From a virus (lineage: Duplodnaviria > Heunggongvirae > Uroviricota > Caudoviricetes): 64,000 nucleotides of DNA. The DNA is taken from IMG/VR virus record IMGVR_UViG_2872147552_000001; one strand, given 5' to 3'. Each line of letters opens with the position of its first letter. Position 1 is the first letter of the stretch. The position numbers were made by a program, and so were the translations under genes. The notes under the pieces are model-generated. The model searched no databases, had not been told where the DNA came from, and saw only the letters and a program-made list of their open reading frames with translations. Below, in pieces: positions 2,211-51,174 of the stretch.

Positions 2211-2861
2211 ATGGCTAACATTATCATTTCTAAAAAATCCATCATTGAAGCTGCTTCCATTGTATCCGATGAACTGCGCGAAAAAGCAGATCTGGCAACT
2301 CAAACATATAACGAACATTATAAAAATGGTACGCACACTAAAGCAGACAAAGCAAATATGCAAGCTGCGACCACTAAACTTGCTTACTTCATCAACAACG
2401 TTGTAAACGCTGTAGAAGACGAAAAATTATGCTCTGTTTTCTACTATGCGATCAAAGCAAGCAAACAAGCGCCAGAAGTTTTTTTCCGTGATGCAATGAC
2501 TAACAGTTATTCTCTGGAAAAACTGGTTTATCTGGTCAAATCAATTAAATCTGGTAAATGCGTTTATTCCGTCGCTGATATGTCAGGATCTCGTGTATTT
2601 GCTTTAATCGATATGATTAACGACGAGATCGACACGTTCACCAATGGCGCTGTTTTCGATTTAATGAATGAAGCTAAAAAAGCGTGCGAAATTAAATTGG
2701 ACGCTGGCTATACTCAAGCCAACCAGTTGATCAATCTTTGCGAACGTCTCGGACTTGTTGAAAAAGTCAAAGGAGCTGGGAGCGCGAAAGCTGGTACTCA
2801 GCAATATCGCTTCGTTAAAAATGATTTTTATAACTATCTGGCTGATGCTTTTAAAGCGTAA
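2211..2861 (+). CDS. hypothetical protein (216 aa), AT-rich module
   Basis: ORF with AAGGA RBS; no family recognised. Confidence 0.5.
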   Translation: MANIIISKKSIIEAASIVSDELREKADLATQTYNEHYKNGTHTKADKANMQAATTKLAYFINNVVNAVEDEKLCSVFYYAIKASKQAPEVFFRDAMTNSYSLEKLVYLVKSIKSGKCVYSVADMSGSRVFALIDMINDEIDTFTNGAVFDLMNEAKKACEIKLDAGYTQANQLINLCERLGLVEKVKGAGSAKAGTQQYRFVKNDFYNYLADAFKA

Positions 2862-2872
2862 TTAATGGAATC

Positions 2873-2893
2873 AAGCGCCCACTATGGGCGCTT
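2873..2893 (+). terminator. intergenic hairpin (attenuator or terminator)
   Basis: Perfect stem aagcgccc-actat-gggcgctt between two genes. Confidence 0.4.
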
Positions 2894-2909
2894 TAAAGGA
2901 GCTTTAAAA

Positions 2910-3113
2910 ATGGTCAGCTATGACAAGATCCGCGCGGAATATCGCGCAAAGTATCGCGCTTATAAACTGGAATTAATCGATGATTTGATCGCGCAACGCG
3001 ACCAATTAAATTTTACGTTTTCTGATTTGCTCAACAGCAAGCGAGATTGCAAGCGCAAACGTGAATACTTACGTTTAAGCGCATTAATCGGAAAACTTCA
3101 AAATTCTATTTAA
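2910..3113 (+). CDS. hypothetical protein (67 aa)
   Basis: ATG preceded by aaaggagcttta RBS; ORF track start at 2865 would overlap the hairpin. Confidence 0.4.
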   Translation: MVSYDKIRAEYRAKYRAYKLELIDDLIAQRDQLNFTFSDLLNSKRDCKRKREYLRLSALIGKLQNSI

Positions 3114-13219: not shown

Positions 13220-13609
13220 CTACATCACGGGACAATCATCAAACTCGCCACTTCTTGCGTCGTTGATAATGTGAGTGATCACACCAAACACGGCATTGCT
13301 GCCCGTGCATCCATCGTCATCCTTTGGCAATGCTTCCTTCTTACCGGTTCTTAAATCCTCCAGATGCTGACGTGGGTACTTCCGGTATCTTTTTACGCGA
13401 TATTCCCCATCCAGAGCGCATACAAGCAGAGAACCATCAACCGGGGTAAGCGAGGAATCGACCACCAGCAATGCACCCTGTAATATTCCCTCACGATGAT
13501 GACTATCAGCTGCCCTCATGAAGTAGGTCGCTGAAGGATGTCTAATTATCTGCTGATCAAGAGAAATACGGCTCTCAGCATAATCCGCCGCAGGAGAAGG
13601 GAAGCCCAT
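13220..13609 (-). CDS. umuD: UmuD'-like protein (pre-truncated, HumD-like)
   Basis: 129 aa beginning M-GFPSPAADY, the residue after the UmuD self-cleavage site; retains S24 peptidase fold motifs (HPSATYF, Ser and Lys positions). Confidence 0.7.
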   Translation of the reverse strand: MGFPSPAADYAESRISLDQQIIRHPSATYFMRAADSHHREGILQGALLVVDSSLTPVDGSLLVCALDGEYRVKRYRKYPRQHLEDLRTGKKEALPKDDDGCTGSNAVFGVITHIINDARSGEFDDCPVM

Positions 13610-15515: not shown

Positions 15516-16165
15516 TCGTCATCCTCATCCGAGTCATCCTCATCACAGGATGAGAGTAGTGGGTTAGTCATTCGCCCTACTTGAGTGGCGTAGCCACGCC
15601 GACAGAGATTGCGCAGCACACTGTATATTTCGAACATCTCGGTTCGTTCATCGCCAACATCAAGCTCAGATGCTATAGCGTGGCATTCAGTCGCGAGAGC
15701 CGATATTTTCTGAAATAACTCTGCATTATTCACTGTTCGACTCCTGCGGCGTTCTGGTAGTGACATCCAGTGTGTGACATTGCTAATCAGACCATATTCA
15801 TTAGTTTGAGGATGGTTGCCGTTAGCGTCTCCGTATTTAAGACTCTCCATAAAGCCATAATGCCTATCACCATTAACGCTCACAAAGCCGTAATAAGCAG
15901 GTATAACGCCGATCTCACACGTAACCAGTAAAGGAAAACTAGTTCTCCAATTTAGCTCGCCAATTACAGGCATTCGCTCACTACAGCTTATCCAACCATC
16001 CTTAGATGCGGCTGTATTGGCATAGGCCTTACGGTGCTTCTGTAACTCTGCTGCAATCGCTCTCACGACTTCAACTGGTGCCCTTGCAGCAAACTCAATG
16101 TTGGTGATCAGCTCATTAAGATATTTCTCGCTTGGGTAGCATTTCTTATTGTTAACGGTGGTCAT
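15512..16165 (-). CDS. hypothetical protein, DUF551-like phage protein
   Basis: WISCSERMP...THWMSLP pattern; acidic C-terminal tail. Confidence 0.45.
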   Translation of the reverse strand: MTTVNNKKCYPSEKYLNELITNIEFAARAPVEVVRAIAAELQKHRKAYANTAASKDGWISCSERMPVIGELNWRTSFPLLVTCEIGVIPAYYGFVSVNGDRHYGFMESLKYGDANGNHPQTNEYGLISNVTHWMSLPERRRSRTVNNAELFQKISALATECHAIASELDVGDERTEMFEIYSVLRNLCRRGYATQVGRMTNPLLSSCDEDDSDEDDE

Positions 16166-18068: not shown

Positions 18069-18449
18069 CTAATTGCCGGATAAAATGGGGTGAGGTGCTT
18101 GCCAGTAGGCTCCACCGGTCCATGTGAACCCCATGCGAATAAGAGTGTTTATTGCGGCTTTGGTAGACTCCGATTCGACACTGGCTTTTCGAAACTCTTG
18201 AACCTCTTTCGCCAACTTGTATGTAATTGTGCAGGGGACGATTGCAGCCCAGCCTTTCTCATGACTGTTAATGACCATCTGGATGTGACCATCCAGAATA
18301 GGTTGATTAGGCATGTTATTGAAAATGTCTGCCTGTTTTTGAATGTGAAGAAAAAGCCTTGCCAGCTCCATTTGCTCACTACGAGACAAGGGATTATCAA
18401 GAGGGCTTTTTGCAAAAGCGGCTATACGCTGTGCGTCAATGCCAAACAT
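18069..18449 (-). CDS. hypothetical protein (126 aa)
   Basis: ORF; start overlaps the upstream gene stop. Confidence 0.45.
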   Translation of the reverse strand: MFGIDAQRIAAFAKSPLDNPLSRSEQMELARLFLHIQKQADIFNNMPNQPILDGHIQMVINSHEKGWAAIVPCTITYKLAKEVQEFRKASVESESTKAAINTLIRMGFTWTGGAYWQAPHPILSGN

Positions 18450-19153
18450 CAGCGCACCTCACCATCTTTATGGCTGGAGTTAACTTCCGCCATTAAATGT
18501 CTGACGTAATCGACAAGAGAGCCGCCTGGTGGAATCTGGCATTCCTCAACTAACTGGAAGTAGATATCCGCTGCATTACGTGTATTGCTACCCGCGCATA
18601 TTCTTTCTTCCCGAAGTGCATGAAGCTCGTTGATCAAACGGTCACACTCTCCGTTACGCTGATCCACAACGGCCTCAAGCTCTGCGACGCGTTCACCTGG
18701 CGTCTTACCTTCTTTGCGTTGGATGGTAACGACGAAATCGCCAATTGCAGGGACGTTGTAATCCAGCTCAAGGTAGTTTTTGGCACCGCTGCGGACGAAC
18801 TCACCCGCGAACATGGTGGCGAACATCGCAGAGGCCACTTCGCCGTTGAAAAGTGACTCCAGATCTAACGGAGTCCCGGCATCAAGAGCCTCTTTTGCTG
18901 TATCCATTGCATCCATGAACCGATCAAACTCATTGGCGCGCTTTTCCAGGTTTTTCCATTGCTCGCTCCAACGTTTGGCAACGAAGTCTATGAATGTTTT
19001 CGCGGATTCATCAAAATTCCCCTCAAACTTAACGATGCCTTTATCAATAATGATCTGGCCTACCGCATCCTCTGCATAACCTTTCAATGTAAACTTGAAA
19101 GGAAAATCGGAATGGCCTGTGACGTTAAAATGCTCTAACTGGAGGTTGCTCAT
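18449..19153 (-). CDS. hypothetical protein (234 aa)
   Basis: ORF; class B palindrome upstream. Confidence 0.5.
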   Translation of the reverse strand: MSNLQLEHFNVTGHSDFPFKFTLKGYAEDAVGQIIIDKGIVKFEGNFDESAKTFIDFVAKRWSEQWKNLEKRANEFDRFMDAMDTAKEALDAGTPLDLESLFNGEVASAMFATMFAGEFVRSGAKNYLELDYNVPAIGDFVVTIQRKEGKTPGERVAELEAVVDQRNGECDRLINELHALREERICAGSNTRNAADIYFQLVEECQIPPGGSLVDYVRHLMAEVNSSHKDGEVR

Positions 19154-19192: not shown

Positions 19193-19215
19193 AACTAAGT
19201 AAGTATTTACCTATC
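19193..19215 (-). promoter_or_regulatory. class B palindrome
   Basis: ctaagtaagtatttacctatc. Confidence 0.4.
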
Positions 19216-20899
19216 ATTTAACGCGTTTGAAAACGTATACGCTGACTGTGATCCCTGTGTCTTCAAACTCGTTGGTAAACGACTTCCCTCTGGCATAAAC
19301 GTAATTATCCATCGTCATCCAGTCCAGTATTGGCGCAGTGCCCGGCAATACTGCTACAAGACGCCCGCCGACTTTCAGATGCCCCAGCGCAGCCAGCGTG
19401 TGCTCTCTATGACGACCAAGCGAGTACGGCGGGTTCATAACGATTTTGTCGAACTGATAACCTACGTTGTCCTCAGACCACTTTATGAAGTCGCAGCAAA
19501 TCGTGTTCGTATACCCTTTTCCGCGCAGGATATCAGCGAAGAGAGGTGCGATTTCTATGCAGGTAACATCTTCCAGATCGGCGTTAATATAGGCCAGAAG
19601 ATCCCCACGTCCGGCTTGAGGCTCCAGCAGCTTCTCACCAGGCTTCAATTCAGTGGCTCTGGCAACGTACTCAGCAATCAAGCGTGGGGTAGGGTAGAAC
19701 TGGTGTGATTTTGTATCCGGTATTAAACCGGTAGCCACAATCGTATTTAGCGTATGGACGATGTCATACGGGAACTGCCAGTGCTTTTTCTCCTGCACGC
19801 CGCCAATGAAGCTCAGTGTGCGCTCAAGCTCTTCCACCTGCGACTTCTGGAGAGCTGAATCAGAGAAGTACCATACGCCTTTGTCTTTGCTCAATCGCCC
19901 GTCACGAAGCGCAGTGCGAACCGGCACGGAGATCGTCTTCTGGATTAACCCGAACTGCTTTGGTGCCCGTGTTTTTGGCGCGGTGCGACATGGCGCGGGG
20001 ATTGCAGCAGGCATACTGTAAGCCAGCACCTCATTCAACTTCCAGGCCACGTCAGGATGTATTTCAAAGTGAACGTTGCCGTTCTTGAACATCTTCACGC
20101 GCATCAGATTTCCATCGACGTTCATCCAGTCACCGGTCTGGCAGTCGTTTGCCCGATACGCAGCTGATAGCACCTCAGCAGTGCGGTTGATGGTAATAAA
20201 TTCTTTGTGCGCGAAGAAATGAAGCAAGACACGCAGATCGTCGATGTAGTCCTCTTTGCGATAGTTCACGCTAACGCTGTCCCGCCAGAAATCAGAAATG
20301 CAGTCAGCGATTATCAGCCGCTCGCTGAAACCGTTTGTCTTATTTGTCTTGTGCGCAGGACTCAGCGCCTTAAACAAGCCATACACGCGCTCAGAGAGAT
20401 ATTTGTGCCTGTCATTCAGCAAATTAAGCATCGTGGGTATGACCGTTTCTGCTTTGAACTCCGGTACACCAACGAACTCTTTAACCTTCATCTGGTAGCC
20501 GGTTCTGTCAGTTTTGATGACTTCCTGTTTGCCCTCTATAAACTGCTCGCGCCACTCATCTCGACGGGAAGCTGGCATGATCAGCAAAACGTTAGTCATG
20601 TCCGTGACCTTCCTCCAGTACTCGGCCCAAATATTCTGTTTCACCCATTCCAGATCGACTTTATCCAACCAACCTCGATTTAAACGCGAGCGATCTTCAT
20701 CTGGTCGATGGTTTAGTCTCAGCAGGCGATTAATCATGTTGTGGCGTTCGTCGCCATAAACGAAGTCGTGTACCTGATACATGAAGGCGATCTCTTTCTC
20801 GCACTCGGCCACAATTTCGTGGATGACGTTCATTTCCTGCCGATAGTCGATAGCAGTGTTTGAGTTGGCATCGTCGATGATGGAAAGGGCTGTATTCAT
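19214..20899 (-). CDS. DNA N6-adenine methyltransferase with large N-terminal domain of unknown function
   Basis: C-terminal third has FYPTP, EPQAGRGDLL (SAM-binding) and NPPY catalytic motif; about 380 aa N-terminal with no recognised motif. Confidence 0.65.
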   Translation of the reverse strand: MNTALSIIDDANSNTAIDYRQEMNVIHEIVAECEKEIAFMYQVHDFVYGDERHNMINRLLRLNHRPDEDRSRLNRGWLDKVDLEWVKQNIWAEYWRKVTDMTNVLLIMPASRRDEWREQFIEGKQEVIKTDRTGYQMKVKEFVGVPEFKAETVIPTMLNLLNDRHKYLSERVYGLFKALSPAHKTNKTNGFSERLIIADCISDFWRDSVSVNYRKEDYIDDLRVLLHFFAHKEFITINRTAEVLSAAYRANDCQTGDWMNVDGNLMRVKMFKNGNVHFEIHPDVAWKLNEVLAYSMPAAIPAPCRTAPKTRAPKQFGLIQKTISVPVRTALRDGRLSKDKGVWYFSDSALQKSQVEELERTLSFIGGVQEKKHWQFPYDIVHTLNTIVATGLIPDTKSHQFYPTPRLIAEYVARATELKPGEKLLEPQAGRGDLLAYINADLEDVTCIEIAPLFADILRGKGYTNTICCDFIKWSEDNVGYQFDKIVMNPPYSLGRHREHTLAALGHLKVGGRLVAVLPGTAPILDWMTMDNYVYARGKSFTNEFEDTGITVSVYVFKRVK

Positions 20900-21002
20900 A
20901 ATTGCACCATTAAGAAGTGATTTGTTTAATGGTGCAATTATTTCAAAAATGAAAAGGTACTAAATAGAAATAAACAGGCAATCCTTCAAATAAAGGCATT
21001 GG

Positions 21003-23530: not shown

Positions 23531-23778
23531 ACAACCGCCTTAGTCACAACATGATCCTGAGTAACTGGATGAACTTGAGGTATCGCATCCACCGTCATCC
23601 CATCCAGAGTGACAGGACGCTCTACTGGAGTGGTGGTAATTGTCGTCGACGGAGGTGTGGTGATGGATGAACCCGGCATCAAAAGGCTCTGGCCGGCTGG
23701 AACGGCTATCGTCGCCAGTGAAACTATAATGAGAACGTAGGCCATTGGTTTCAGCCTCTTTCTTTGAAAATTTTCCAT
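23527..23778 (-). CDS. small secreted or membrane-anchored Thr/Pro-rich protein
   Basis: Hydrophobic MAYVLIIVSLATIAVPA then TTPPSTTITTTP; coupled to downstream gene. Confidence 0.35.
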   Translation of the reverse strand: MENFQRKRLKPMAYVLIIVSLATIAVPAGQSLLMPGSSITTPPSTTITTTPVERPVTLDGMTVDAIPQVHPVTQDHVVTKAVV

Positions 23779-24034
23779 TCGAACTGTCCTTGTTGTTTTT
23801 CTCCTTCACTAAAGGCCGTGCATTTTTCGCTTGGTGTGAAGAACCAGAGGTAACAATCGCCCCCACGTTCGCAACAACTGACGCTTGCTTATCTAAACGT
23901 TCATTCAGCAACCGAACGGTAGTCTCCAGTTCATCAAGACGTGACAGAACACGACCGCTAAATAATTCGGCCAAAATTTGACGTAGTGAACGAGGACGTT
24001 TAGTTGCAGAAGTGAAATAGGTTTGACGTGCCAT
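23540..24034 (-). CDS. hypothetical protein (N-terminal part plausible, C-terminal part overlaps 23527-23778 in another frame)
   Basis: N-terminal about 85 aa look protein-like; C-terminal part low-complexity Ser-rich. Confidence 0.3.
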   Translation of the reverse strand: MARQTYFTSATKRPRSLRQILAELFSGRVLSRLDELETTVRLLNERLDKQASVVANVGAIVTSGSSHQAKNARPLVKEKNNKDSSNGKFSKKEAETNGLRSHYSFTGDDSRSSRPEPFDAGFIHHHTSVDDNYHHSSRASCHSGWDDGGCDTSSSSSYSGSCCD

Positions 24035-24163: not shown

Positions 24164-24183
24164 ATAGGTAAACACTTACTTAC
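24164..24183 (-). promoter_or_regulatory. class B palindrome
   Basis: ataggtaaacacttacttac. Confidence 0.35.
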
Positions 24184-24849: not shown

Positions 24850-25350
24850 AATAAACAAATTACTTCCCAGAACAGGTTTTTATAAACCTGAACTGAACGA
24901 ACGAAGTGAGTGAAGTTCACCTCGAACGAAGTGAGAGGTTGTCTTTTCAGGTAATACTCTCCCAGGGAGGTGAGTATAAAAATCCCTCACCAACCTGGTC
25001 GTTTCATAACCTGAAAAGTTATGGCCTAAGTCTACTGCCAGCTTAGACTTGGGAAGTTATGGATGACAGCACCCCAGAACCGAGATCTTCCCACACTTTA
25101 TGAAGGGGAGTACTGGATTCAACCTCTCGAAACACCCCAGACTCGACAATCATAAAGTGACCCTTGTCTCCGCTCACTTTGGTTCCCCCTTCCCCGACAC
25201 CTAAACGGCACCGGTTCTACGCTGGTAGTGAGCTTTTTTTAAACCTGACGCCAGTGACGCTTACCCCCACCCATCAGGTCGAGTCTCCAGTCTACGACTG
25301 GAAACTAGCAGATCTTAGCACTTACAATTCACTTTATGAATAGTTTGTAC
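24850..25350. other. about 500-bp noncoding region with dense dyad symmetry (candidate structured RNA or origin)
   Basis: No ORF on either strand; multiple stems such as aagtctactgccagcttagactt and repeated gaacgaagtgag. Confidence 0.35.
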
Positions 25351-25357
25351 TTATCTA

Positions 25358-25588
25358 TCATTTCGATTGATTATTTTCTCGACCATGTAGTTGAACATTC
25401 AAGGCAAACACCTCATTGATCAACTCACCTAAAAGCTGTTCAACAAGTTCGCGATGCTCGCCAAGATGCAAGCACTTAATTGCCCATTCGTACAAGTTGA
25501 AAGCCTGCTCGCGATCTTTCATCATTTCACGGGCCTGGGCCAGAAAATCGCTCTCTACGAGCGCAACGACATTAGTCGGGTATGACAT
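25358..25588 (-). CDS. hypothetical protein
   Basis: ATG start (MSYPTNV...). Confidence 0.4.
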   Translation of the reverse strand: MSYPTNVVALVESDFLAQAREMMKDREQAFNLYEWAIKCLHLGEHRELVEQLLGELINEVFALNVQLHGRENNQSK

Positions 25589-25693
25589 GTTGGTTTCCTT
25601 AAAGTGGTTCATAAAATCGATTTTAAAGCGTCTGGGAAGGGGTTCTAGTGGATTCTGTAGTGGTGTTCAGGTCTGGGAGTCTCTGATATAAAA

Positions 25694-25753
25694 CAGCCTG
25701 CTTCCGTATATTAATAATTAATATGTAGTTATTTATATATACAGAAGCAGGCT
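25694..25753 (-). terminator. long-stem hairpin terminator
   Basis: cagcctgcttc ... gaagcaggct with AT-rich loop downstream of the methyltransferase gene. Confidence 0.5.
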
Positions 25754-25774
25754 AATTACAGACGCCAGAACAAA

Positions 25775-26368
25775 CTAAGCAGCCTTCTTTGATGGTCTTT
25801 TTTTCCTGATCACATTCGCAGGATCATACCCTCCCAGACTTTTCATGACATCCAAAGGGATCTTGCTTATAGAGTGCCCAGCGTCCTGACAGAATCCTCG
25901 AAAAACAACGAGCATACTGCCACCGGGGTTGATGTTTACTTCTACCTGACCCAGATTGACGTCAGGCTCGACAAACGCTACGCGGCCACCAGACAGAATA
26001 ATCGTCTCATTCGCACACTCTGTTGCACGCTCATACCACTTTGTATCGAGGGATTGAGGAATTAGCATCACTGTTGTAACTCCGCGAGCCTGCTCACGTA
26101 TAGCCGCATCAATCCAGGGGGAGATTTTGGAGTAGGGTGGATTGAGGAAGGCAATTGTACCTGGCTGCCCCCATTCAGATTTCAAAGCATCACGCTCAAC
26201 GCCTATGAAATTAGGCAGCTTCGCATTATCCTTGTTGCAGGCAACGTCAACATCAAATGTCACTCCAAGATAACGTTGAATGGCAGAAAACAGCCAGTCA
26301 GGTGTTCTCCAGAGGTCACGAAGAGAGTTGTCGCGCTTTCGCTGTTTGATTTTTTCGGCTGCAATCAT
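25775..26368 (-). CDS. DNA N6-adenine methyltransferase (phage Dam-like family)
   Basis: WRTPDWLF and NPPYS motifs. Confidence 0.7.
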   Translation of the reverse strand: MIAAEKIKQRKRDNSLRDLWRTPDWLFSAIQRYLGVTFDVDVACNKDNAKLPNFIGVERDALKSEWGQPGTIAFLNPPYSKISPWIDAAIREQARGVTTVMLIPQSLDTKWYERATECANETIILSGGRVAFVEPDVNLGQVEVNINPGGSMLVVFRGFCQDAGHSISKIPLDVMKSLGGYDPANVIRKKRPSKKAA

Positions 26369-26377
26369 CTTCTTTCT

Positions 26378-26400
26378 CGATAGGTAAGTGATTACCTATT
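26378..26400 (-). promoter_or_regulatory. class B palindrome
   Basis: cgATAGGTAAGTgATTACCTATt, near-perfect dyad 10 nt upstream of the methyltransferase start. Confidence 0.5.
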
Positions 26401-26551
26401 TTTGCATTTGATTTTATGTCTGGCAATCAAATAAAACGCGACAGAAATGCAAACGAGAAGCTCTCTGGCGCGTTTTTGTGGTGCTGGATATGTGATTGGC
26501 TTACCCAGCACTATAAAGCTCTCTATGGGCTTTATTTTCAGTAGGGGGACG

Positions 26552-27361
26552 TCATCCAATAGTGTACTCCGCGACAAACTTCTTAACGATCGGTGATTCT
26601 TCGTTCAATGTTAGATTTCCACCGTCTCTAACAGCAATTCCTGTAGCTGGAAATACAGCCATCATTTGCCCAGCCTGAGTTGACGCAGTGTTAAGCGGAT
26701 ACGGTTTTTCTGGATTGCTCATTAAAGCAATCTTAATACTATTACTTGTAGCCTTCTTTTCTGTGAGAAGGTGTCTCATGGAAATTACCGTGTAAACACT
26801 AATATCTGGACCTCCGCTAAACCAATTAAGAAGGTTTAATATCTTATCCTTTGCTTTGACAGGCGCGTTTTCGTAAGCGTCTAAGAAAATATCTTTTTCT
26901 AAGCCTGCTTTATTGAAAAACAAATCATCTTTATCACTTAAAGTAAAACGAGGACCTCTTGCAGTACGAGCTTTTTTATTTGTATTGCTATCATTTGACT
27001 GTTGAACTTTTAATTCATCATTAACCTCAACACACTCTTCAACCTCAATAAACCCCAATTGTTCTGGCTCGTTTTCGGCAGATTCAACACTTTCAGCCTT
27101 AATTACGTTTATAGGCTCATGAGCTAACTCCAACTCATTTAAAGCGGAGCTGAAATCACCTGCTTTTCCTTCATTGAACAGTTCTTCGGCAACATCATCA
27201 GAACTCATGGCTACGCCAGCATCGAGGCCGAGAAGCAGATCGTCAATATCATCAGTATTTTCAACCTGTGCAGCTTTTTTTACTGGTTCATCAAGTGATT
27301 GCAACATGGCTGTCAGCTCATCCAGATCATCATTTGTCATTACATTTTCAACCGAACTCAT
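26552..27361 (-). CDS. acidic hypothetical protein (269 aa)
   Basis: Highly acidic N-terminal half. Confidence 0.5.
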   Translation of the reverse strand: MSSVENVMTNDDLDELTAMLQSLDEPVKKAAQVENTDDIDDLLLGLDAGVAMSSDDVAEELFNEGKAGDFSSALNELELAHEPINVIKAESVESAENEPEQLGFIEVEECVEVNDELKVQQSNDSNTNKKARTARGPRFTLSDKDDLFFNKAGLEKDIFLDAYENAPVKAKDKILNLLNWFSGGPDISVYTVISMRHLLTEKKATSNSIKIALMSNPEKPYPLNTASTQAGQMMAVFPATGIAVRDGGNLTLNEESPIVKKFVAEYTIG

Positions 27362-27482
27362 GTAAGTCTCCTTCTGTTTGGTTACATTTGCGTTTCGATG
27401 GCTACATTTTGACTAAACCTATCAGGCGGAAAAGTATTAAATACAGGCAGGAAATGATTGAAAGGCGACTGTTCTTTAAAAG

Positions 27483-27515
27483 AAAGCCTACTTTAAACTT
27501 TTTAAAGTAGGCTTT
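27483..27515 (-). terminator. rho-independent terminator
   Basis: aaagcctactttaaactttttaaagtaggcttt with T-runs on both sides. Confidence 0.55.
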
Positions 27516-30099: not shown

Positions 30100-31203
30100 T
30101 CACACCGCCACTGGAACCTTGATCCACGGAAGAGTGCTGTAGCCGCACACCTGCACACCTTCCCATTTGAAGTCGTCCAGTTCGGCCCATTCATGCGGGA
30201 AGATGACAACCGGGTCGGACTCTTTGGGCGGCTCGCGCTTCATCAGTTCCTCAACGCCTTCCATGTGGTTGTTGTACAAATGCACGTCAAAGCCAAAATG
30301 CACGAATGCGCCAGCCATGTGGCCGGTGATCTTCGCGAGGAAGTGGGTGAGAATGCCGTAACCGGCGATGTTGAACGGCATACCAACAAAGGTATCGACA
30401 CTGCGTTGAACCAGGCATGAGTTCAGAATGCGTTTCGGGATGCCCAGCTCGTCCAGCATGTTCTCAGTAATGCCGCCATCTCTTTCCAGAAGACACAGCA
30501 TCTGGGTGTAAATGGACTCGTGGCCGTGGCGGTTGTGCTGTATACCAATGTCAGTTGCCATCGTTAAACGGGTTTCAAAATCCAGCTCACGACTCCACAA
30601 AGAGAAGACAAAGTGGCAAGGTGGCAGTTTCATATCCTCAAGCTCGCCTACGTTCCATGCGTTAAGCATGATGCGACGATCGGTAGGGTTCGTGCGCAGT
30701 GTATCGACAATACGCTGTAGCTGATCGATTTCACGGGACAGCACTACGCGATCTTCACTGATACCCAGGTATCCCTCGACTCTGTACCCGCGTTCACGGA
30801 AAGTAGCGATCTTGCTCAGATATTCACTATGGCTCACGATGCGGGTATCTTCCCATCGACGCCACTGCTTACCGTAAACCGGCCCCAAATCGCCATTCTC
30901 ATCGGCCCATGCATCCCAAATCTTAACGCCGTTATCCTTGAGAAATTGGATGTTGCCCGTGCCTTTCAGATACCACTCAAGTTCGACAAGCAGTGGCTTA
31001 AGATTTACCGCCTTTCCAGAAATAAGCGGCACAGTCCCACCAGTAAGCATGTAATAAGAGGGAACGTAGCAGGTGCTTAAAGTACCAGTGCCTGTGCGAT
31101 CATCAGCCTGCACGCCGCTTTTAAGCACCGTCTCAATAACTTTTGCATACGATGCGTTTGTTACCTGACCGTTCGTATGCTCTCGATTCAAAAGGAGTGA
31201 CAC
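30100..31203 (-). CDS. thyA: thymidylate synthase with about 50-aa internal insertion
   Basis: DRTGTGT, LPPCH, PFNIAGY, HLY, IKVPVAV motifs; GTG start with GAGG RBS; extra segment between PPCH and the SCxxxxRS region. Confidence 0.85.
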   Translation of the reverse strand: MSLLLNREHTNGQVTNASYAKVIETVLKSGVQADDRTGTGTLSTCYVPSYYMLTGGTVPLISGKAVNLKPLLVELEWYLKGTGNIQFLKDNGVKIWDAWADENGDLGPVYGKQWRRWEDTRIVSHSEYLSKIATFRERGYRVEGYLGISEDRVVLSREIDQLQRIVDTLRTNPTDRRIMLNAWNVGELEDMKLPPCHFVFSLWSRELDFETRLTMATDIGIQHNRHGHESIYTQMLCLLERDGGITENMLDELGIPKRILNSCLVQRSVDTFVGMPFNIAGYGILTHFLAKITGHMAGAFVHFGFDVHLYNNHMEGVEELMKREPPKESDPVVIFPHEWAELDDFKWEGVQVCGYSTLPWIKVPVAV

Positions 31204-31217
31204 AAAAACCTCACAAA

Positions 31218-31235
31218 GATAAGTAATTACTTATT
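31218..31235 (-). promoter_or_regulatory. class B palindrome
   Basis: gATAAGTAATTACTTATt, perfect dyad about 15 nt upstream of the thyA start. Confidence 0.5.
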
Positions 31236-31373
31236 CATCATGTGAGTTTACATTCATTGAGAGAACAAGACCAGACAGATAAAAAAATGGTGGCCATAGG
31301 CCACCAAAACGAATAGTCATTCCAGAGTTTTATTACGCATGTTAAATATACATAGATAGATAACTACCTACAA

Positions 31374-32243
31374 TTATTTTTTGATCATTCCGTACATTGC
31401 TGAGGCTTTAGCTTGCTCAACAAAGGAGGATAAATCGACATCACTATAGGTTGGAGACTTCAGAATCTTTCCATCGGAAATTCGAAAACCGATCATCTTA
31501 TCGGTGCCATCAGCATGGCGGAATCCCAGATCTGAAGAGTCGTATTTGCAGTTGGCCACAGCCTGGCGACGTTCCTCAACATCAGCAGGCCATAATTTTG
31601 TCATGTTAGACCGATGAATTTCGCCAACCAGCTCGACGACATTGATACCGAGGAAATCAGCCAGTCGATAAGTCATCATGCACGCCACATAGATTTTGTT
31701 CATTACACGGCGCAGTTCCTGAATCAGCTCAGAATCCTTAACAGCCTTCTTCTCAAGTTTATCTGCCAGCTCTTCGAGCATACATGACGCCTCACGAGCT
31801 TCCTGAAATGGCATTGCCATATCATCGAAAACAGTGTTACCAGGCACAAAAATTGTCTGCATAAAGCGATCAATGCTCTGTTCCTGCGTGTAATAGGTCA
31901 TGCCGGTAGAAATACCACCTTTGATGGCGACCATCGTACCAACACCAACGTATAAAAAGTCGGCCATTGCATCCAGCAGTTGCTCAATATCCCCATTCAT
32001 TGCAGCTGGAATACCTTCCACTACAGCTTCTTCATGAATCAGGCTTGCACGGAGACGAAGCAGCTCTGGTGTCGGCATAACGCGTCTCGGATGCTGGAAG
32101 AGTTCATGAAACTGATCGACCATCTTGTAAATACTTTCAGTGGCTACACCATGGCCTTCATGCAACTCATATGGTTCTGGCTTAAATCCAATGAGTCGAT
32201 CGGTGGCAAGTTTCAGGTGGTCAGTCAGTTTGGTAAAGTTCAT
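31374..32243 (-). CDS. hypothetical protein, possible all-alpha NTP pyrophosphohydrolase (MazG/dimeric dUTPase-like)
   Basis: HEEAVVEGIPAAMNGD acidic EExxE-like patch; weak assignment. Confidence 0.3.
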   Translation of the reverse strand: MNFTKLTDHLKLATDRLIGFKPEPYELHEGHGVATESIYKMVDQFHELFQHPRRVMPTPELLRLRASLIHEEAVVEGIPAAMNGDIEQLLDAMADFLYVGVGTMVAIKGGISTGMTYYTQEQSIDRFMQTIFVPGNTVFDDMAMPFQEAREASCMLEELADKLEKKAVKDSELIQELRRVMNKIYVACMMTYRLADFLGINVVELVGEIHRSNMTKLWPADVEERRQAVANCKYDSSDLGFRHADGTDKMIGFRISDGKILKSPTYSDVDLSSFVEQAKASAMYGMIKK

Positions 32244-35879: not shown

Positions 35880-35925
35880 GTATCACCAAATAAAGAGGGC
35901 CACTATATTTAGTGGCCCATGTTAA

Positions 35926-35946
35926 TAGATAAGCACTTACCTATCA
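35926..35946 (-). promoter_or_regulatory. class B palindrome
   Basis: atagataagcacttacctatc; hairpin gggccactatatttagtggccc at 35898-35919 lies between it and the ATG. Confidence 0.45.
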
Positions 35947-40607: not shown

Positions 40608-40631
40608 TATAAGTAAGTATATACCTATTTA
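40608..40631 (-). promoter_or_regulatory. class B palindrome
   Basis: tataagtaagtatatacctattta. Confidence 0.4.
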
Positions 40632-41482: not shown

Positions 41483-41700
41483 TTATCCACTGGATAGATC
41501 CAAATAAGAGATCCCAAGTAAGATCAAATAGAAGATCCAAAGAGATCCCAGATCGCCTCTAGCCGTTGCGGTTACTGGTCTGAAAGGGTGTTGCCATCCA
41601 CTATGGAGAGCAAAGAAACCTCTGTAGAGAGCTGAATAACCGCTATGAAGAGTAAAACAACCACTCTGGAGAGCTGTATATATCCACTGTAGAGAGTAGA
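41483..41700. promoter_or_regulatory. origin-like unit 1: DnaA box, GATC cluster, iteron array
   Basis: TTATCCAC at 41483; six GATC in 41497-41554; five approx 21-bp-spaced iterons CCACTnTrGAGAG 41596-41700. Confidence 0.6.
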
Positions 41701-41808
41701 GCACATTGTCTTTTATGGATAACTTAATGACTTAATTCTTCATTAACATACTGATATACATAGATATATTTTAAACTCTACTCTTAGTCATGATTCTTAT
41801 GTCCTTAA

Positions 41809-42098
41809 ATATCCACAGAAGAGTAGAGTTACCTGTTCTTGAAATCCTCTGATTTTTATCCACAGGCCCGATCCAGTAATTCAGATCACAAAGAGAACCA
41901 AAGAGACCCATAAAGACCCAATAAGATCCCCGCCCACCTCAAACCGTTGTGCCATCTGCCTTCAGACATGATCGATATCCACTATAGAGAGCGAATAATC
42001 CACTATAGGGAGCAAAGCAACCACTATAGAGAGGAGAAAAACCACTATAGACGGTAGGATAACCGCTGTGATGAGTGCTACTATCCACTGTAATCAGC
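41809..42098. promoter_or_regulatory. origin-like unit 2 (incC-like): DnaA boxes, GATC sites, iterons before repA
   Basis: ATATCCACA 41809, TTATCCACA 41856; GATC sites; six iterons 41976-42098. Confidence 0.65.
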
Positions 42099-42138: not shown

Positions 42139-43194
42139 ATGAGCGAAAACGGCAATAAAAACATAGCGATCGTTGAAGCATTTTCAGAAACAGATAAAAA
42201 GACAGGCGAAGTTGTTACGTTGGTTCCTAACACTAATAACACTGTTCAGCCTGTTGCTTTGATGCGTCTGGGCCTCTTCGTTCCGACGCTGAAATCGACA
42301 TCCAGAGGAAGAAAGGGGCAAATGGTCTCTATGGATGCCTCTGCTGAACTCAAACAGCTGTCTCTGGCAAAAGCCGAAGGGTACGAAGACATAAGGATCT
42401 CTGGCCTTCGGCTTGATATGGATAACGACTTTAAAACGTGGGTGGGAATAATCCACGCGTTTGCCAAACACAAGGTCGTTGGCGATACTGTCACGTTGCC
42501 GTTCGTTGAGTTTGTAAGGCTGTGTGGCATTCCGACCGCCAGGTCATCAGCGAAGTTACGCAAACGCCTGGACAGTTCGCTAAGCCGTATTGCCACAAAT
42601 ACCATCTCGTTCCGTAGTAAAGGCTCTGATGAGTTTTACGTAACGCATCTTGTGCAAACGGCAAAATATAGTGTCAAGCACGATACGGTCGAACTGAAAG
42701 CAGATCCCAAGATTTTCGAACTCTACCAGTTCGACAAAAAGGTTCTTCTGCAACTCCGGGCTATAAACGAACTCTCAAGAAAAGAATCCGCTCAGGCGCT
42801 TTATACTTTTATTGAAAGTTTGCCGCCTGATCCGGCACCAATATCACTAGCCCGTTTACGCGCCAGACTTAATCTGACAAGTCGCACTATTACTCAGAAT
42901 GCGACGGTAAGAAAGGCTATGGAACAGCTGCGAGAGATAGGATATCTCGATTACACGGAAGTTAAGCGCGGAAACTCGGTCTACTTCGTCATCCACTATA
43001 GGCGGCCAAAGTTACGCCAGGCACAAATATCAACAAAAATCGATAATGATGAGACGGAATATAGCCTCCCAGATGAGAATCAAGATGACATTATCGACGT
43101 TGTGCCTGACGAAAAAGAAGGCAAAATGGTCATGTTGAGTAAAGAAGAACTGGCGCTTCTCGAAGAGTTGCGCAAGGCAAAGACTCGCAAATAG
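42139..43194 (+). CDS. repA: replication initiator RepA (P1/RepFIB iteron-binding type)
   Basis: [77 protein letters not shown] recalled as hallmark of P1/RepFIB RepA; iterons on both sides. Confidence 0.85.
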
Positions 43195-43682: not shown

Positions 43683-43895
43683 TTAGTGTATTTTCTTCAA
43701 CAGACCCCAAAGTGTTCCGGCTTTTGTAGTCAGTTTTCCTGTTTCTGGATCGTACATACGCCATTCACGCCGCTGGTGGACGATATACCCATCTTCACGT
43801 TCCAGACGCTCAAGAATGCCAGGCTGCTTGAAACCCTTAGCGCGCCAGTATCCGCTTGTTTTCTCGATTTCCAGACCTGCCAGTGTTAATGCCAT
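43683..43895 (-). CDS. hypothetical protein (70 aa)
   Basis: ORF coupled to upstream gene. Confidence 0.4.
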   Translation of the reverse strand: MALTLAGLEIEKTSGYWRAKGFKQPGILERLEREDGYIVHQRREWRMYDPETGKLTTKAGTLWGLLKKIH

Positions 43896-44230
43896 TATCC
43901 AACCTCCTTGCAGTCATCGAAAAGGTAGCTTTGCTGAGAAGCGTGAACGCCATAGAAGCCCTTGTATTTGTTGTATACGAAGTGGTCTTCTCCGACGCCG
44001 GTTAATTTGCCATTACGATTTGTGAGATATGGGGATGACAATACTCGATCGTCACGCACAACATAGAACTGGTCGCCGCTGTCTACGACCATCGCTCCAT
44101 ATGGTGCTTTTATGACGTCGGTAAGAGCACCATTCTTAACGTCGGCTACAGACATTTCACACTGATAAACAGTGGTGTCGGCCACAACGATCGAAGAAAG
44201 GAACAACAGCGCGAATGGGATGGCCTTCAT
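43895..44230 (-). CDS. secreted hypothetical protein (111 aa)
   Basis: Signal peptide MKAIPFALLFLSSIVVA; ATGA overlap with small membrane ORF. Confidence 0.45.
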   Translation of the reverse strand: MKAIPFALLFLSSIVVADTTVYQCEMSVADVKNGALTDVIKAPYGAMVVDSGDQFYVVRDDRVLSSPYLTNRNGKLTGVGEDHFVYNKYKGFYGVHASQQSYLFDDCKEVG

Positions 44231-44406: not shown

Positions 44407-44429
44407 GATAGGTAGATACTAACTTATAT
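44407..44429 (-). promoter_or_regulatory. class B palindrome
   Basis: gataggtagatactaacttatat immediately upstream of the small membrane ORF. Confidence 0.4.
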
Positions 44430-46359: not shown

Positions 46360-46378
46360 AATAAGTAAGTGCTTATAT
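46360..46378 (-). promoter_or_regulatory. class B palindrome
   Basis: aataagtaagtgcttatat. Confidence 0.4.
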
Positions 46379-46420
46379 ATTTTCAAGAGATAAAAAAGGC
46401 GTCCTGTGGACGCCTTGTGT

Positions 46421-51145: not shown

Positions 51146-51174
51146 GATAGATCAGTACTTACTTATTATCTATC
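51146..51174 (-). promoter_or_regulatory. class B palindrome
   Basis: gatagatcagtacttacttattatctatc. Confidence 0.4.

What the first reader, a model, noticed from the sequence alone, without database searches (positions are those of the whole stretch)
25775..26400. Second orphan Dam-like methyltransferase directly under a perfect class B operator
A 197-aa phage-type N6-adenine methyltransferase (WRTPDW, NPPYS) has the cleanest class B dyad 10 nt upstream of its start. Two different orphan adenine methylases in one element, one of them tightly regulated, suggests layered anti-restriction or epigenetic control. The origin region also carries two GATC clusters that a Dam-type methylase could act on.
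Basis: partly seen in the sequence, partly recalled or inferred. Interest (0 to 1): 0.45.

Follow-up and report, generated by a model that had tools for sequence, protein, structure and literature searches.

The report
Operator-controlled phage Dam methylase gene
This is an ordinary phage-type DNA adenine methylase gene of an SSU5/pHCM2-like phage-plasmid; the palindrome in front of it is real, but it is one of about 18 to 25 copies of a genome-wide control site that seems never to have been described.

Summary
ORF 25775..26368 (minus strand, 197 aa) is a PF05869/TIGR01712 "phage N-6-adenine methyltransferase" with all family-invariant residues. The 20-bp dyad ATAGGTAA-GTGA-TTACCTAT (26380..26399) lies 11 nt upstream of its ATG.

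The window is an SSU5/pHCM2-like phage-plasmid, 98% identical to Escherichia phage Cyrano. The gene is already annotated this way in hundreds of plasmids.

The dyad is not special to this gene. Its consensus, TAGGTAAGTACTTACCTA, occurs 11 times in the window against about 0.2 expected, and 18 times in the whole Cyrano genome. Almost all copies are intergenic, they are enriched about 14-fold at sigma-70-like promoters, and they are conserved at orthologous positions in SSU5. A related variant dyad is used in an Acinetobacter relative.

The two arms vary independently, so this is a protein-binding DNA site and not an RNA hairpin.

At dam, and at a conserved 128-aa XRE regulator gene, the -10 hexamer ends exactly on the first base of the dyad.

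Best reading: dam is a terminator-insulated, single-gene unit repressed in the plasmid state and switched on with the lytic DNA-metabolism genes. It probably methylates GATC.

The GATC clusters are a P1-type oriR, which host Dam already serves.

Interest is low to moderate.

The parts
25775..26368 (-). dam-like gene: 197-aa phage-type DNA N6-adenine methyltransferase (PF05869 / TIGR01712)
   Evidence: All residues invariant across the family alignment are present (D41, N48, W66, NPPYS 76-80). The AlphaFold2 model has pLDDT 83.
26380..26399 (.). Class B dyad ATAGGTAA-GTGA-TTACCTAT, the putative operator. It lies 11 nt upstream of the ATG and abuts the -10 hexamer.
   Evidence: The arms are invariant in E. 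coli, Salmonella SSU5 and Klebsiella pJN2-26, while the 4-nt centre and the flanks vary.
26398..26426 (-). Predicted sigma-70 promoter TTGCCA-17 nt-(TG)cAAAAAT. The last T of the -10 is base 1 of the dyad.
   Evidence: 9/12 match, TG extension. Conserved as TTGCCA or TTGCTA plus TGnAAAAAT in three lineages. Prediction only.
26429..26473 (-). Terminator-like hairpin CGCGCCAGA...TCTGTCGCG followed by TTTTATTT. It ends the upstream gene just before the dam promoter.
   Evidence: Read. The stem is perfect (GCGCCAGA/TCTGGCGC) in SSU5 and imperfect in the window and Klebsiella. Inference from sequence.
25685..25753 (-). Strong terminator-like hairpin (18-bp stem, then GUUUUAU) starting 21 nt downstream of the dam stop codon
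   Evidence: dG -38.2 kcal/mol, z = -7.0. Conserved in SSU5 and Klebsiella.
19196..19213 (.). Class B site, 42 nt upstream of gene 18449..19153 and immediately after the stop of the 561-aa methylase gene
   Evidence: Orthologous site in SSU5.
24165..24182 (.). Class B site at the 3' end of the RNase H gene, 130 nt upstream of gene 23540..24034
31216..31233 (.). Class B site 12 nt upstream of the thyX start (30100..31203)
31353..31370 (.). Weaker class B-like site (3 mismatches to the arm pattern, 5 to the 18-bp consensus) just downstream of the MazG-like gene (31374..32243), 149 nt upstream of thyX
35926..35943 (.). Class B site 46 nt upstream of nrdA, lying in the spacer of TTGATA-17-TAACAT
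40610..40627 (.). Class B site upstream of sbcD
44409..44426 (.). Class B site 2 nt upstream of an ATG that corresponds to an annotated small-gene start in SSU5; 178 nt upstream of ORF 43895..44230
46362..46379 (.). Class B site in the spacer of TTGAAA-17-TATTAT, upstream of the membrane protein / SPFH genes
   Evidence: Orthologous SSU5 site at 15696.
51148..51165 (.). Class B site upstream of the gp32-like ssb gene, in the spacer of TAGATA-17-TATCAT
57727..57744 (.). Class B site upstream of gene 56432..57667
60387..60404 (.). Variant class B site TCGGTAAGCACTTACCAG, directly after the -10 of the XRE regulator gene's promoter
   Evidence: The block is conserved in Klebsiella, S. Typhi pHCM2 and Y. 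pestis pMT1.
60434..60820 (+). 128-aa XRE-family HTH protein next to the integrase. It is the candidate repressor that binds class B sites.
   Evidence: Present in 864 plasmids. Missing from lytic isolate SSU5 through a clean 5.9-kb deletion. HTH conserved.
19214..20899 (-). Second putative adenine methylase: 561 aa, DUF4942 plus a C-terminal domain with motif I EPQAGRGDL and motif IV NPPYS
   Evidence: Conserved next to dam in Xenorhabdus and Providencia relatives.
41484..41973 (.). P1/RepFIB-type origin region: DnaA-box-like TTATCCAC, six GATC in 41497..41554, a set of iteron-like repeats, then four GATC in 41870..41973. A second set of iterons follows (to about 42100) before repA (42139..43194).
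   Evidence: IncFIB typing of relatives. These are the only strong GATC clusters in the genome.

Best explanation
The ORF encodes an active, restriction-less DNA N6-adenine methyltransferase of the phage T1/HP1/VT-2 'Dam' family. It is carried as a core gene by SSU5/pHCM2-like phage-plasmids.

The gene forms its own small transcription unit, in this order: the upstream gene's terminator, a sigma-70 promoter (TTGCCA-17-TGcAAAAAT), the 20-bp palindrome starting on the last base of the -10, a weak ribosome-binding site, dam, and a strong terminator.

The palindrome is one copy of a genome-wide operator with consensus TAGGTAAGTACTTACCTA, about 18 copies per 108-kb genome. It is recognised as double-stranded DNA by a symmetric dimeric protein. 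The most likely binder is the 128-aa XRE-family regulator encoded next to the integrase.

In the plasmid (lysogenic) state the bound protein blocks RNA polymerase at dam and at the other lytic units. These include the nucleotide-metabolism, recombination, replication and structural genes. The protein also limits expression of its own gene through a weaker variant site in the same position. When repression is lifted, dam comes on together with the DNA-metabolism genes.

The enzyme then keeps the fast-replicating phage DNA fully methylated, most probably at GATC. Progeny genomes would therefore be protected and would arrive in the next host with a ready-methylated P1-type origin.

Shown here: family membership, intact motifs, the reality, repetition and conservation of the dyad, its association with promoters, and the lack of arm covariation.

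Inferred: that the promoter is used, that the site represses rather than activates, the identity of the binder, GATC specificity, and the biological role.
For: Family: PF05869 at E 2.5e-38, TIGR01712 above its cut-off, phrog_111, and PADLOC 'orphan methyltransferase'.

Motifs: every column invariant in the alignment with the T1, HP1 and Stx-phage (VT-2-type) Dam proteins is kept.

Distance to characterised members: those three enzymes are 32-37% identical to one another, and this protein is 27-33% identical to each. The literature reports all three as GATC-specific (references in PMC7556043, and my own knowledge).

Orthologues sit on ~100-112 kb phage-plasmid contigs across Enterobacterales.

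Dyad statistics.

Conservation: the arms are invariant and the centre variable in three lineages, with the promoter hexamers conserved. SSU5 has 13 sites in 50 kb at orthologous positions, including dam. Xenorhabdus and Providencia keep a class-B-like dyad abutting the dam ATG.

DNA site, not hairpin: in 28 distinct sites, 81.7% of cells pair against 81.8% after shuffling partners. A-C mismatches (16) are not rarer than G-U pairs (12) on the sense strand.

Promoter link: 7 of 18 sites overlap a sigma-70-like match, against 2.7% of random positions.

Identical geometry at two promoters: the -10 ends on dyad base 1 at dam and at the XRE gene. The latter block is conserved in pHCM2, pMT1 and Klebsiella.

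Regulon logic: no site at <=4 mismatches lies upstream of repA, parA or the toxin-antitoxin genes.

XRE candidate:
- It is present in 864 plasmids.
- SSU5, isolated as a lytic phage, is 98-99% identical to an Enterobacter plasmid prophage around a clean 5.9-kb deletion. That deletion removes the XRE gene, its divergent 70-aa neighbour and the integrase.
- An Acinetobacter phage-plasmid whose XRE homologue is 40-48% identical differs at the start of the recognition helix (YKNANN to FKRPNV). It uses a variant dyad, AGTCAGTACTGACT, more than 20 times, including in its own switch region.

Insulation of the dam unit: hairpins on both sides.
Against: There is no experimental evidence of any kind.

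The promoter matches are weak (9 of 12). Locally they are no more frequent than in shuffled sequence, so the argument rests on conservation and on the genome-wide enrichment.

Several late-region dyads sit in very short gaps with no promoter-like match, for example the 26-nt gap between the large terminase subunit gene (terL) and the portal gene. Simple promoter occlusion does not explain these.

The centre of the site is asymmetric, and the better-conserved half flips between early and late regions. This is unexplained.

The link to the XRE protein is circumstantial. SSU5 keeps all its dyads without the protein, and because the deletion is recent this neither supports nor refutes the link. 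Two ParB_N proteins with a dyad at their own start are present in all these elements.

GATC specificity rests on 27-33% identity to characterised enzymes. There is no solved structure of the family. Fold matches are only generic N6-adenine/Rossmann methyltransferases with TM 0.4-0.54.

All hosts already have Dam, so a GATC enzyme would be partly redundant.
Confidence: 0.6

Rival explanations
1. The dyads are positive control sites. A conserved core protein of the element, for example one of the two ParB_N proteins next to the terminase or another DNA-binding protein, binds them to activate or organise lytic transcription. Under this reading dam is switched on, not held off, through the dyad.
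For: Dyads occur at both early and late units. SSU5 grows lytically and keeps well-conserved dyads without the XRE gene. ParB_N genes have a dyad at their own start in both Cyrano and the Acinetobacter element. P1 late promoters use a palindrome bound by an activator (from my own knowledge).
Against: At dam and at the XRE gene the dyad starts on the last base of the -10 and covers the expected start site. At other promoters it fills the -35/-10 spacer. These are positions typical of repression, not activation. The promoters it overlaps already have recognisable -35 and -10 hexamers. The SSU5 deletion is recent (98-99% identity on both flanks), so the retained dyads say little either way.
Confidence: 0.2
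2. A ParB/KorB-like protein, not the XRE regulator, is the global silencer that binds the palindromes, as KorB does at the OB operators of IncP-1 plasmids.
For: Two ParB_N-domain proteins are conserved in the Enterobacterial and the Acinetobacter elements. Palindromes of 13-20 bp are typical ParB/KorB sites. The sites lie at variable distances from promoters and also within operons. KorB biology is from my own knowledge.
Against: No HTH or KorB domain was detected in these proteins beyond ParB_N. They lie next to the terminase genes, a place where phage ParB-like nuclease-domain proteins are commonly encoded (general knowledge; not tested here). The variant dyad and the XRE recognition helix change together between families. 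However, any co-evolving protein would show the same pattern.
Confidence: 0.15
3. The dyad acts as an RNA stem-loop in the dam 5' leader, as a translational operator, processing site or attenuator, and not as a DNA operator.
For: It lies 11 nt from the ATG, next to a weak ribosome-binding site. In Xenorhabdus and Providencia the dyad abuts the ATG. The element encodes an FljA/Hfq-like RNA-binding protein. Some late sites lie in tiny gaps inside operons.
Against: There is no covariation between the arms: 81.7% paired against 81.8% in shuffles. A-C mismatches (16) are at least as common as G-U pairs (12) on the sense strand. Positions 3 and 16 vary independently as purine and pyrimidine. Each half is conserved at the level of sequence, not pairing. 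At dam and the XRE gene the predicted start site lies inside the dyad, so the RNA would lack the 5' arm.
Confidence: 0.07
4. The enzyme is not a GATC methylase. It methylates another motif and serves as anti-restriction cover against a specific host restriction system, perhaps together with the 561-aa methylase.
For: It is only 27-33% identical to the characterised GATC enzymes. It forms its own clade restricted to these phage-plasmids. All hosts already methylate GATC. The element carries a second methylase, and some relatives carry whole restriction-modification systems nearby.
Against: The three characterised members are as distant from one another as from this protein, and all are reported to recognise GATC (literature cited). 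The known relaxed-specificity phage adenine methylases (phiP27/OS31 type) belong to an unrelated family, PF01555.
Confidence: 0.35

Closest known systems
Phage T1 / HP1 / VT-2 (Stx phage) Dam methyltransferases (Pfam PF05869, TIGR01712)
   Same: Same family by HMM, scoring above the curated cut-offs. It is a small (173-237 aa) stand-alone enzyme. It has the N-terminal D-x-W-x-TP motif, the FD-x-D acidic motif, NPPYS and the T-V-V-M-L-x-P strand. It has no restriction partner. It is encoded among early / DNA-metabolism genes of a phage.
   Different: It is only 27-33% identical to the characterised members and forms a separate clade confined to SSU5-like phage-plasmids. Its specificity is untested. 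It has its own promoter-operator-terminator cassette, whereas in the Stx phage the gene lies inside the nin region.
E. coli / T4 Dam (alpha-class, Pfam MethyltransfD12)
   Same: Possibly the same target (GATC) and the same chemistry (N6-adenine).
   Different: It is not homologous at the sequence level and belongs to a different family. No match to that family was reported, and no solved structure of any kind matches by sequence.
Phage-plasmid P1: C1 repressor with more than 15 operators scattered round the genome, and P1 Dam (Dmt)
   Same: Both are phage-plasmids whose lytic functions are held off through many dispersed copies of one operator, including a copy at the repressor's own gene. Both carry a P1-type oriR with clustered GATC sites and their own adenine methylase.
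   Different: P1 operators are asymmetric 17-mers bound by a large C1 monomer. Here the site is an 18-20 bp palindrome and the candidate binder is a 128-aa XRE protein. P1 Dmt belongs to a different methylase family. The P1 facts are from my own knowledge and were not tested here.
Mycobacteriophage L5 gp71 'stoperators'
   Same: Tens of copies of one repressor site lie in short intergenic gaps of both early and late operons.
   Different: L5 sites are asymmetric and orientation-dependent, and they block elongation. Here the sites are palindromic and many overlap promoters. A roadblock function for the late-region copies is only a possibility.
IncP-1 KorB / OB operator network
   Same: A palindromic operator is repeated a dozen or more times across a mobile element, at varying distances from promoters. 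ParB-family proteins are present.
   Different: No KorB-type DNA-binding domain was detected. The sequence is unrelated to the OB operator. Binding has not been tested.

Membership tests
Phage Dam family (PF05869 / TIGR01712) | Profile-HMM score above the curated family threshold | tested here: met
   PF05869 scores 131.8 bits against 28.1. TIGR01712 scores 113.9 bits against 97.05.
Phage Dam family (PF05869 / TIGR01712) | Catalytic motif IV (D/N)PPY, plus the family-specific D-x-W-x-TP and FD-x-D motifs | tested here: met
   DLWRTP is at residues 18-23, FDVDVA at 38-43 and NPPYS at 76-80. All columns invariant with T1, HP1 and VT-2-type Dam are kept.
Phage Dam family (PF05869 / TIGR01712) | Methyltransferase (Rossmann-like) fold | tested here: inconclusive
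   The model is confident (pLDDT 83, pTM 0.81). The best solved matches are N6-adenine or other class I methyltransferases (PCIF1, TaqI, CamA, KsgA), but only at TM 0.4-0.54 and E about 3e-4. No member of the family has a solved structure.
Phage Dam family (PF05869 / TIGR01712) | m6A formation at GATC | not testable with these tools
   This can only be inferred from 27-33% identity to three GATC enzymes that are 32-37% identical to one another.
Orphan (solitary) methyltransferase | No cognate restriction endonuclease gene adjacent | tested here: met
   The flanking genes (84 aa, 269 aa, RNase H, exonuclease) give no nuclease or restriction hit in Pfam, PHROGs or PADLOC. The same neighbours are conserved in SSU5, Klebsiella, Xenorhabdus and Providencia. 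An unrecognised nuclease cannot be excluded.
Repressor operator (DNA site of a dimeric regulator) | A palindromic sequence repeated far above chance, conserved as sequence in each half | tested here: met
   The arms vary independently.
Repressor operator (DNA site of a dimeric regulator) | Overlap with promoter core elements or the transcription start | tested here: met
   7 of 18 sites overlap sigma-70-like matches, against 2.7% of random positions. The -10 ends on dyad base 1 at dam and at the XRE gene. The promoters themselves are only predictions.
Repressor operator (DNA site of a dimeric regulator) | A cognate protein binds the site and lowers transcription | not testable with these tools
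   The candidate XRE protein (60434..60820) is supported only by context.
Structured RNA element (leader hairpin) | Base pairing maintained by compensatory or G-U changes on the transcribed strand | tested here: not met
   81.7% of cells are paired against 81.8% in shuffles, and the covariation score is 0.126 against 0.127. There are 16 A-C mismatches against 12 G-U pairs.
P1/RepFIB-type plasmid origin (oriR) | DnaA box, clustered GATC repeats, iterons and an adjacent repA | tested here: met
   Sequence inspection. Relatives are typed IncFIB. RepA is named in the Cyrano annotation. Dependence on methylation was not tested.

The most novel reading that the evidence does not exclude
The 18-bp palindrome TAGGTAAGTACTTACCTA may be the operator of an undescribed genome-wide silencing network. 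This network would be shared by the SSU5/pHCM2-like phage-plasmid family, which includes S. Typhi pHCM2. A co-varying version exists in Acinetobacter phage-plasmids. The regulator and its own variant site are also conserved on Y. pestis pMT1. In this reading a single 128-aa XRE protein holds about 20 lytic units silent in the plasmid state, dam among them. It would act at promoters and possibly also as a roadblock inside late operons. Loss of the protein, as in SSU5, would turn the plasmid prophage into a lytic phage.
Probability: 0.4. Interest if true: 0.5.

Novelty: new member of a known kind. Interest (0 to 1): 0.3.

Why it matters
The methylase itself adds little. Solitary Dam-family enzymes are common in phages, and this gene is already annotated as one in hundreds of plasmids.

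The useful by-product is the control site. SSU5/pHCM2-like phage-plasmids are widespread in clinical E. coli, Klebsiella, Enterobacter and Salmonella and can carry resistance genes. I found no description of how their plasmid and lytic states are switched: text searches for the motif, and for SSU5 with repressor or operator, returned nothing relevant.

The analysis yields a defined operator sequence, a list of the units it heads, and a named candidate repressor. Together these make the switch directly testable. They also explain why phage SSU5 behaves as a lytic phage.

For dam specifically, the analysis predicts expression only during lytic growth. That would explain why methylome surveys of carrier strains need not show any extra motif.

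Tried and rejected
1. RNA hairpin reading of the dyad. Rejected on the covariation test and on A-C versus G-U counts.

2. Relation to the known non-specific phage adenine methylases (phiP27 / OS31 type). Rejected: those are PF01555, with no similarity to this protein.

3. The S24 'LexA-like' protein (13220..13609) as the repressor. Rejected: it is UmuD-like and has no DNA-binding domain.

4. A P1-pac-like GATC cluster near the terminase, which would explain a phage Dam. None was found. The only strong clusters are at oriR.

5. GATC over- or under-representation as a clue to specificity. Uninformative: 273 against 246 expected in the window, and 456 against 416 in Cyrano.

6. A solved structure of a relative. 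None by sequence, and only generic fold matches.

7. Literature on SSU5 regulation, the motif, or methylomes of carrier strains. Nothing relevant was found. One 2026 preprint on a phage-plasmid and heteroresistance could not be opened.

8. Using SSU5's lack of the XRE gene as evidence against XRE binding. Dropped once the deletion proved recent.

9. A single fixed promoter geometry for all dyads. Not found. There are at least two geometries, and some sites have no promoter match.
Full report
**What the window is**

The region 25000..27500 is 98-99% identical to about 175 non-mobilizable plasmids of 105-120 kb from E. coli and E. albertii. It is also 98% identical to Escherichia phage Cyrano and 76-78% identical to Salmonella phage SSU5 and to Klebsiella phage-plasmids.

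The Cyrano annotation shows that the window covers the early, DNA-metabolism and plasmid half of an SSU5/pHCM2-like phage-plasmid. It contains RNase H, exonuclease, DHFR, ThyX, NrdAB, SbcCD, RepA, RecA, SSB, the DNA polymerase III alpha subunit, an integrase and a small HTH regulator.

**The observation**

The ORF lies on the minus strand at 25775..26368 and encodes 197 aa, including LWRTPDW and NPPYS. It matches Pfam PF05869 'Dam' (E 2.5e-38), NCBIfam TIGR01712 'phage N-6-adenine-methyltransferase' above its cut-off, phrog_111 and PADLOC 'orphan methyltransferase' models.

The dyad ATAGGTAA-GTGA-TTACCTAT is at 26380..26399, 11 nt from the ATG.

**The enzyme**

A database search finds orthologues (56-98% identity) almost only on ~100-112 kb contigs of Enterobacterales, including Xenorhabdus and Providencia. 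All are named phage N-6-adenine-methyltransferase.

I aligned the protein with the Dam proteins of phage T1, phage HP1 and an Stx2 phage (VT-2 type). It keeps every invariant column, including DxWxTP, FDxD and NPPYS.

It is 27-33% identical to these three enzymes, and they are 32-37% identical to one another. All three are reported in the literature as GATC methylases (references listed in PMC7556043, and my own knowledge). GATC is therefore the most likely target, though far from certain.

The relaxed-specificity phage adenine methylases described in PMC7556043 (phiP27/OS31 type) belong to PF01555 and are unrelated to this protein.

No solved structure is related by sequence. A confident AlphaFold2 model (pLDDT 83) matches only generic N6-adenine/class I methyltransferases, at TM 0.4-0.54.

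The flanking genes give no restriction or nuclease signal, and the same neighbours recur in all relatives. 'Orphan' is therefore justified.

**The second methylase**

The second methylase is real. The gene 19214..20899 (561 aa) has a DUF4942 domain plus a C-terminal domain with EPQAGRGDL and NPPYS, and it matches phrog_6263. A perfect 14-bp inverted repeat of a different sequence ends at its ATG.

**The dyad is a genome-wide element**

The consensus is the 18-bp palindrome TAGGTAAGTACTTACCTA.

- The window has 11 sites at <=4 mismatches, against 0.2 expected.
- Ten of these lie wholly outside ORFs, against 0.025 expected from intergenic composition.
- The tool's own shuffles give 5 observed against 0.07 expected, and 12 against 1.65.

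In the window the sites head these units: the gene after the 561-aa methylase, the gene after RNase H, dam, thyX, nrdA, sbcD, ssb, several small genes, and the XRE regulator gene.

In the rest of the Cyrano genome the sites also occur in the late region. They lie between terL and the portal gene, after the major capsid gene, and before the tail, tail-fibre and lysis genes. That gives 18 sites at <=4 mismatches in 108 kb.

None lies upstream of repA, parA or the toxin-antitoxin genes.

SSU5 has 13 sites in 50 kb, 12 of them intergenic, at orthologous positions including dam.

**DNA site or RNA hairpin?**

On 28 distinct sites, oriented to the sense strand, the proposed stem pairs in 81.7% of cells, against 81.8% after shuffling partners. 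The covariation score equals the shuffle mean. Among non-Watson-Crick pairs, A-C (16) is at least as common as G-U (12).

Each half-site is therefore conserved as sequence, and the two halves drift independently. A symmetric DNA-binding dimer imposes this pattern; an RNA stem does not.

**Relation to promoters**

Seven of the 18 Cyrano sites overlap a sigma-70-like match on the sense strand, against 2.7% of random positions. Usually the dyad fills the -35/-10 spacer.

At dam the predicted promoter is TTGCCA-17-TGcAAAAAT, and the last T of the -10 is dyad base 1. The hexamers and both arms are conserved in E. coli, SSU5 and Klebsiella, while the centre and the downstream flank vary.

The XRE gene shows exactly the same geometry: TTTACA-16-TAATAT ends on base 1 of TCGGTAAGCACTTACCAG. 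That block is nearly invariant in Klebsiella, S. Typhi pHCM2 and Y. pestis pMT1, inside an otherwise poorly conserved spacer.

In Xenorhabdus and Providencia a class-B-like imperfect dyad abuts the dam ATG, downstream of a TTGCAG/TTGAAG...TATAAA-type promoter.

dam is also bracketed by hairpin terminators. It therefore looks like a self-contained cassette of promoter, operator, gene and terminator.

**Who binds?**

The best candidate is the 128-aa XRE protein (60434..60820), encoded next to the integrase.

- It is present in 864 plasmids, from Klebsiella to Yersinia, but not in phage SSU5.
- SSU5 is 98-99% identical to an Enterobacter plasmid prophage on both sides of a clean 5.9-kb deletion. 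The deletion removes this gene, its divergent 70-aa neighbour and the integrase. An immunity-region deletion is what one expects in a phage isolated by plaque formation.
- The deletion also shows that the protein is not needed for lytic growth. If it binds the dyads, it therefore represses.
- In an Acinetobacter phage-plasmid the XRE homologue is 40-48% identical and differs at the start of the recognition helix. There the recurrent dyad is AGTCAGTACTGACT, a symmetric A-to-C / T-to-G change. It has more than 20 intergenic copies, including copies in the regulator's own upstream region.

All of this is circumstantial. Two ParB_N proteins next to the terminase, each with a dyad at its own start, are the main alternative. 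An FljA/Hfq-like protein is also encoded, but the covariation result argues against an RNA target.

**The origin**

The region upstream of repA holds, in order:

- a DnaA-box-like TTATCCAC;
- six GATC in 58 bp (41497..41554);
- a set of iteron-like repeats;
- four more GATC (41870..41973);
- a second set of iterons just before repA.

Further iterons follow repA. These are the only strong GATC clusters in the genome, and relatives are typed IncFIB.

This is the anatomy of a P1-type oriR. In P1 such an origin needs Dam methylation and is handled by host Dam (established knowledge, not tested here). There is no P1-pac-like GATC cluster near the terminase, and GATC is not biased genome-wide.

**Mechanism proposed**

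In the plasmid state, the class B binding protein occupies the dam operator and blocks initiation. Host Dam looks after oriR. On induction or infection, dam is transcribed together with the nucleotide-metabolism and replication genes.

The enzyme then keeps the rapidly replicating DNA fully methylated, probably at GATC. This would protect packaged genomes. It may also let them fire their methylation-dependent origin on arrival in a new host.

Only the anatomy is shown. Regulation, specificity and role are inferred.

**Verdict**

The methylase is a new member of a well-known family and is already annotated as such. The operator in front of it is not a special feature of this gene. It is one copy of an apparently undescribed genome-wide control site of SSU5/pHCM2-like phage-plasmids, and that site is the more interesting result.

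Overall interest is low to moderate.

Noticed in passing
window 6624, 7109, 9743, 9794, 13732, 22545, 23274, 45219 (13-bp cores): A second recurrent dyad, (AAGA)AAACAA-N-TTGTTT, has 8 perfect copies. All lie 10-25 nt upstream of minus-strand start codons, and several are preceded by a GATAAT-like -10.
   Followed up: partly
window 20900..20939: A perfect 14-bp inverted repeat, AATTGCACCATTAA-N12-TTAATGGTGCAATT, ends exactly at the ATG of the 561-aa DUF4942 methylase gene. It is a different control element from class B.
   Followed up: no
SSU5 (L006 2643..2675) versus Enterobacter plasmid NZ_CP134668 (L017 3373..9298): Phage SSU5 differs from a 98-99% identical plasmid prophage by a clean 5.9-kb deletion. 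The deletion removes the XRE regulator, its divergent 70-aa gene, the integrase, a YafO toxin gene, grxA and phoH. This is a likely reason why SSU5 behaves as a lytic phage.
   Followed up: yes
Acinetobacter plasmid NZ_CP035046 (L010, L011): A distantly related phage-plasmid uses the variant palindrome TCAGTCAGTACTGACT more than 20 times in intergenic gaps of early and late genes. Position 8 varies and positions 9-11 (TAC) are constant relative to transcription. It has no Dam homologue in the 84 kb examined (L010 + L011).
   Followed up: partly
window 35880..35925 (minus strand): Between the class B site and the nrdA start codon lies a terminator-like hairpin, GGGCCACT-AAATAT-AGTGGCCC followed by TCTTTATTT. 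It is either a promoter-proximal attenuator or a 5' stabilising stem.
   Followed up: no
Cyrano 2021, 5444, 9019, 15530, 22449, 26658 (L012); window early sites: In sense orientation, the late-region class B sites keep the 5' half (TARGTAAGTA) and degrade the 3' half. Early-region sites do the opposite. This polarity flip is unexplained.
   Followed up: partly
Cyrano 100780..101301 (L003 2381..2902); corresponds to roughly window 2500..3100 (+): A 173-aa protein matches PF03614 'repressor of phase-1 flagellin' (FljA) at E 1e-80, with an Hfq-like part. The Acinetobacter relative encodes a 180-aa 'Hfq'. These may be an RNA-binding regulator of the phage-plasmids.
   Followed up: no
Providencia relative L019 13781..18278: A complete Type III restriction-modification pair (Res helicase plus N6_N4 Mod) is inserted between the dam region and the DUF4942 methylase gene. 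The stretch between the two methylases is therefore an accessory-gene hot spot.
   Followed up: no
window 25640..25690 and alignment A5 columns 130-200: Downstream of the dam terminator there are three or four copies of a CCCAGAC/CCAGA-containing repeat, conserved in SSU5 and Klebsiella. They lie just upstream of the 84-aa gene.
   Followed up: no
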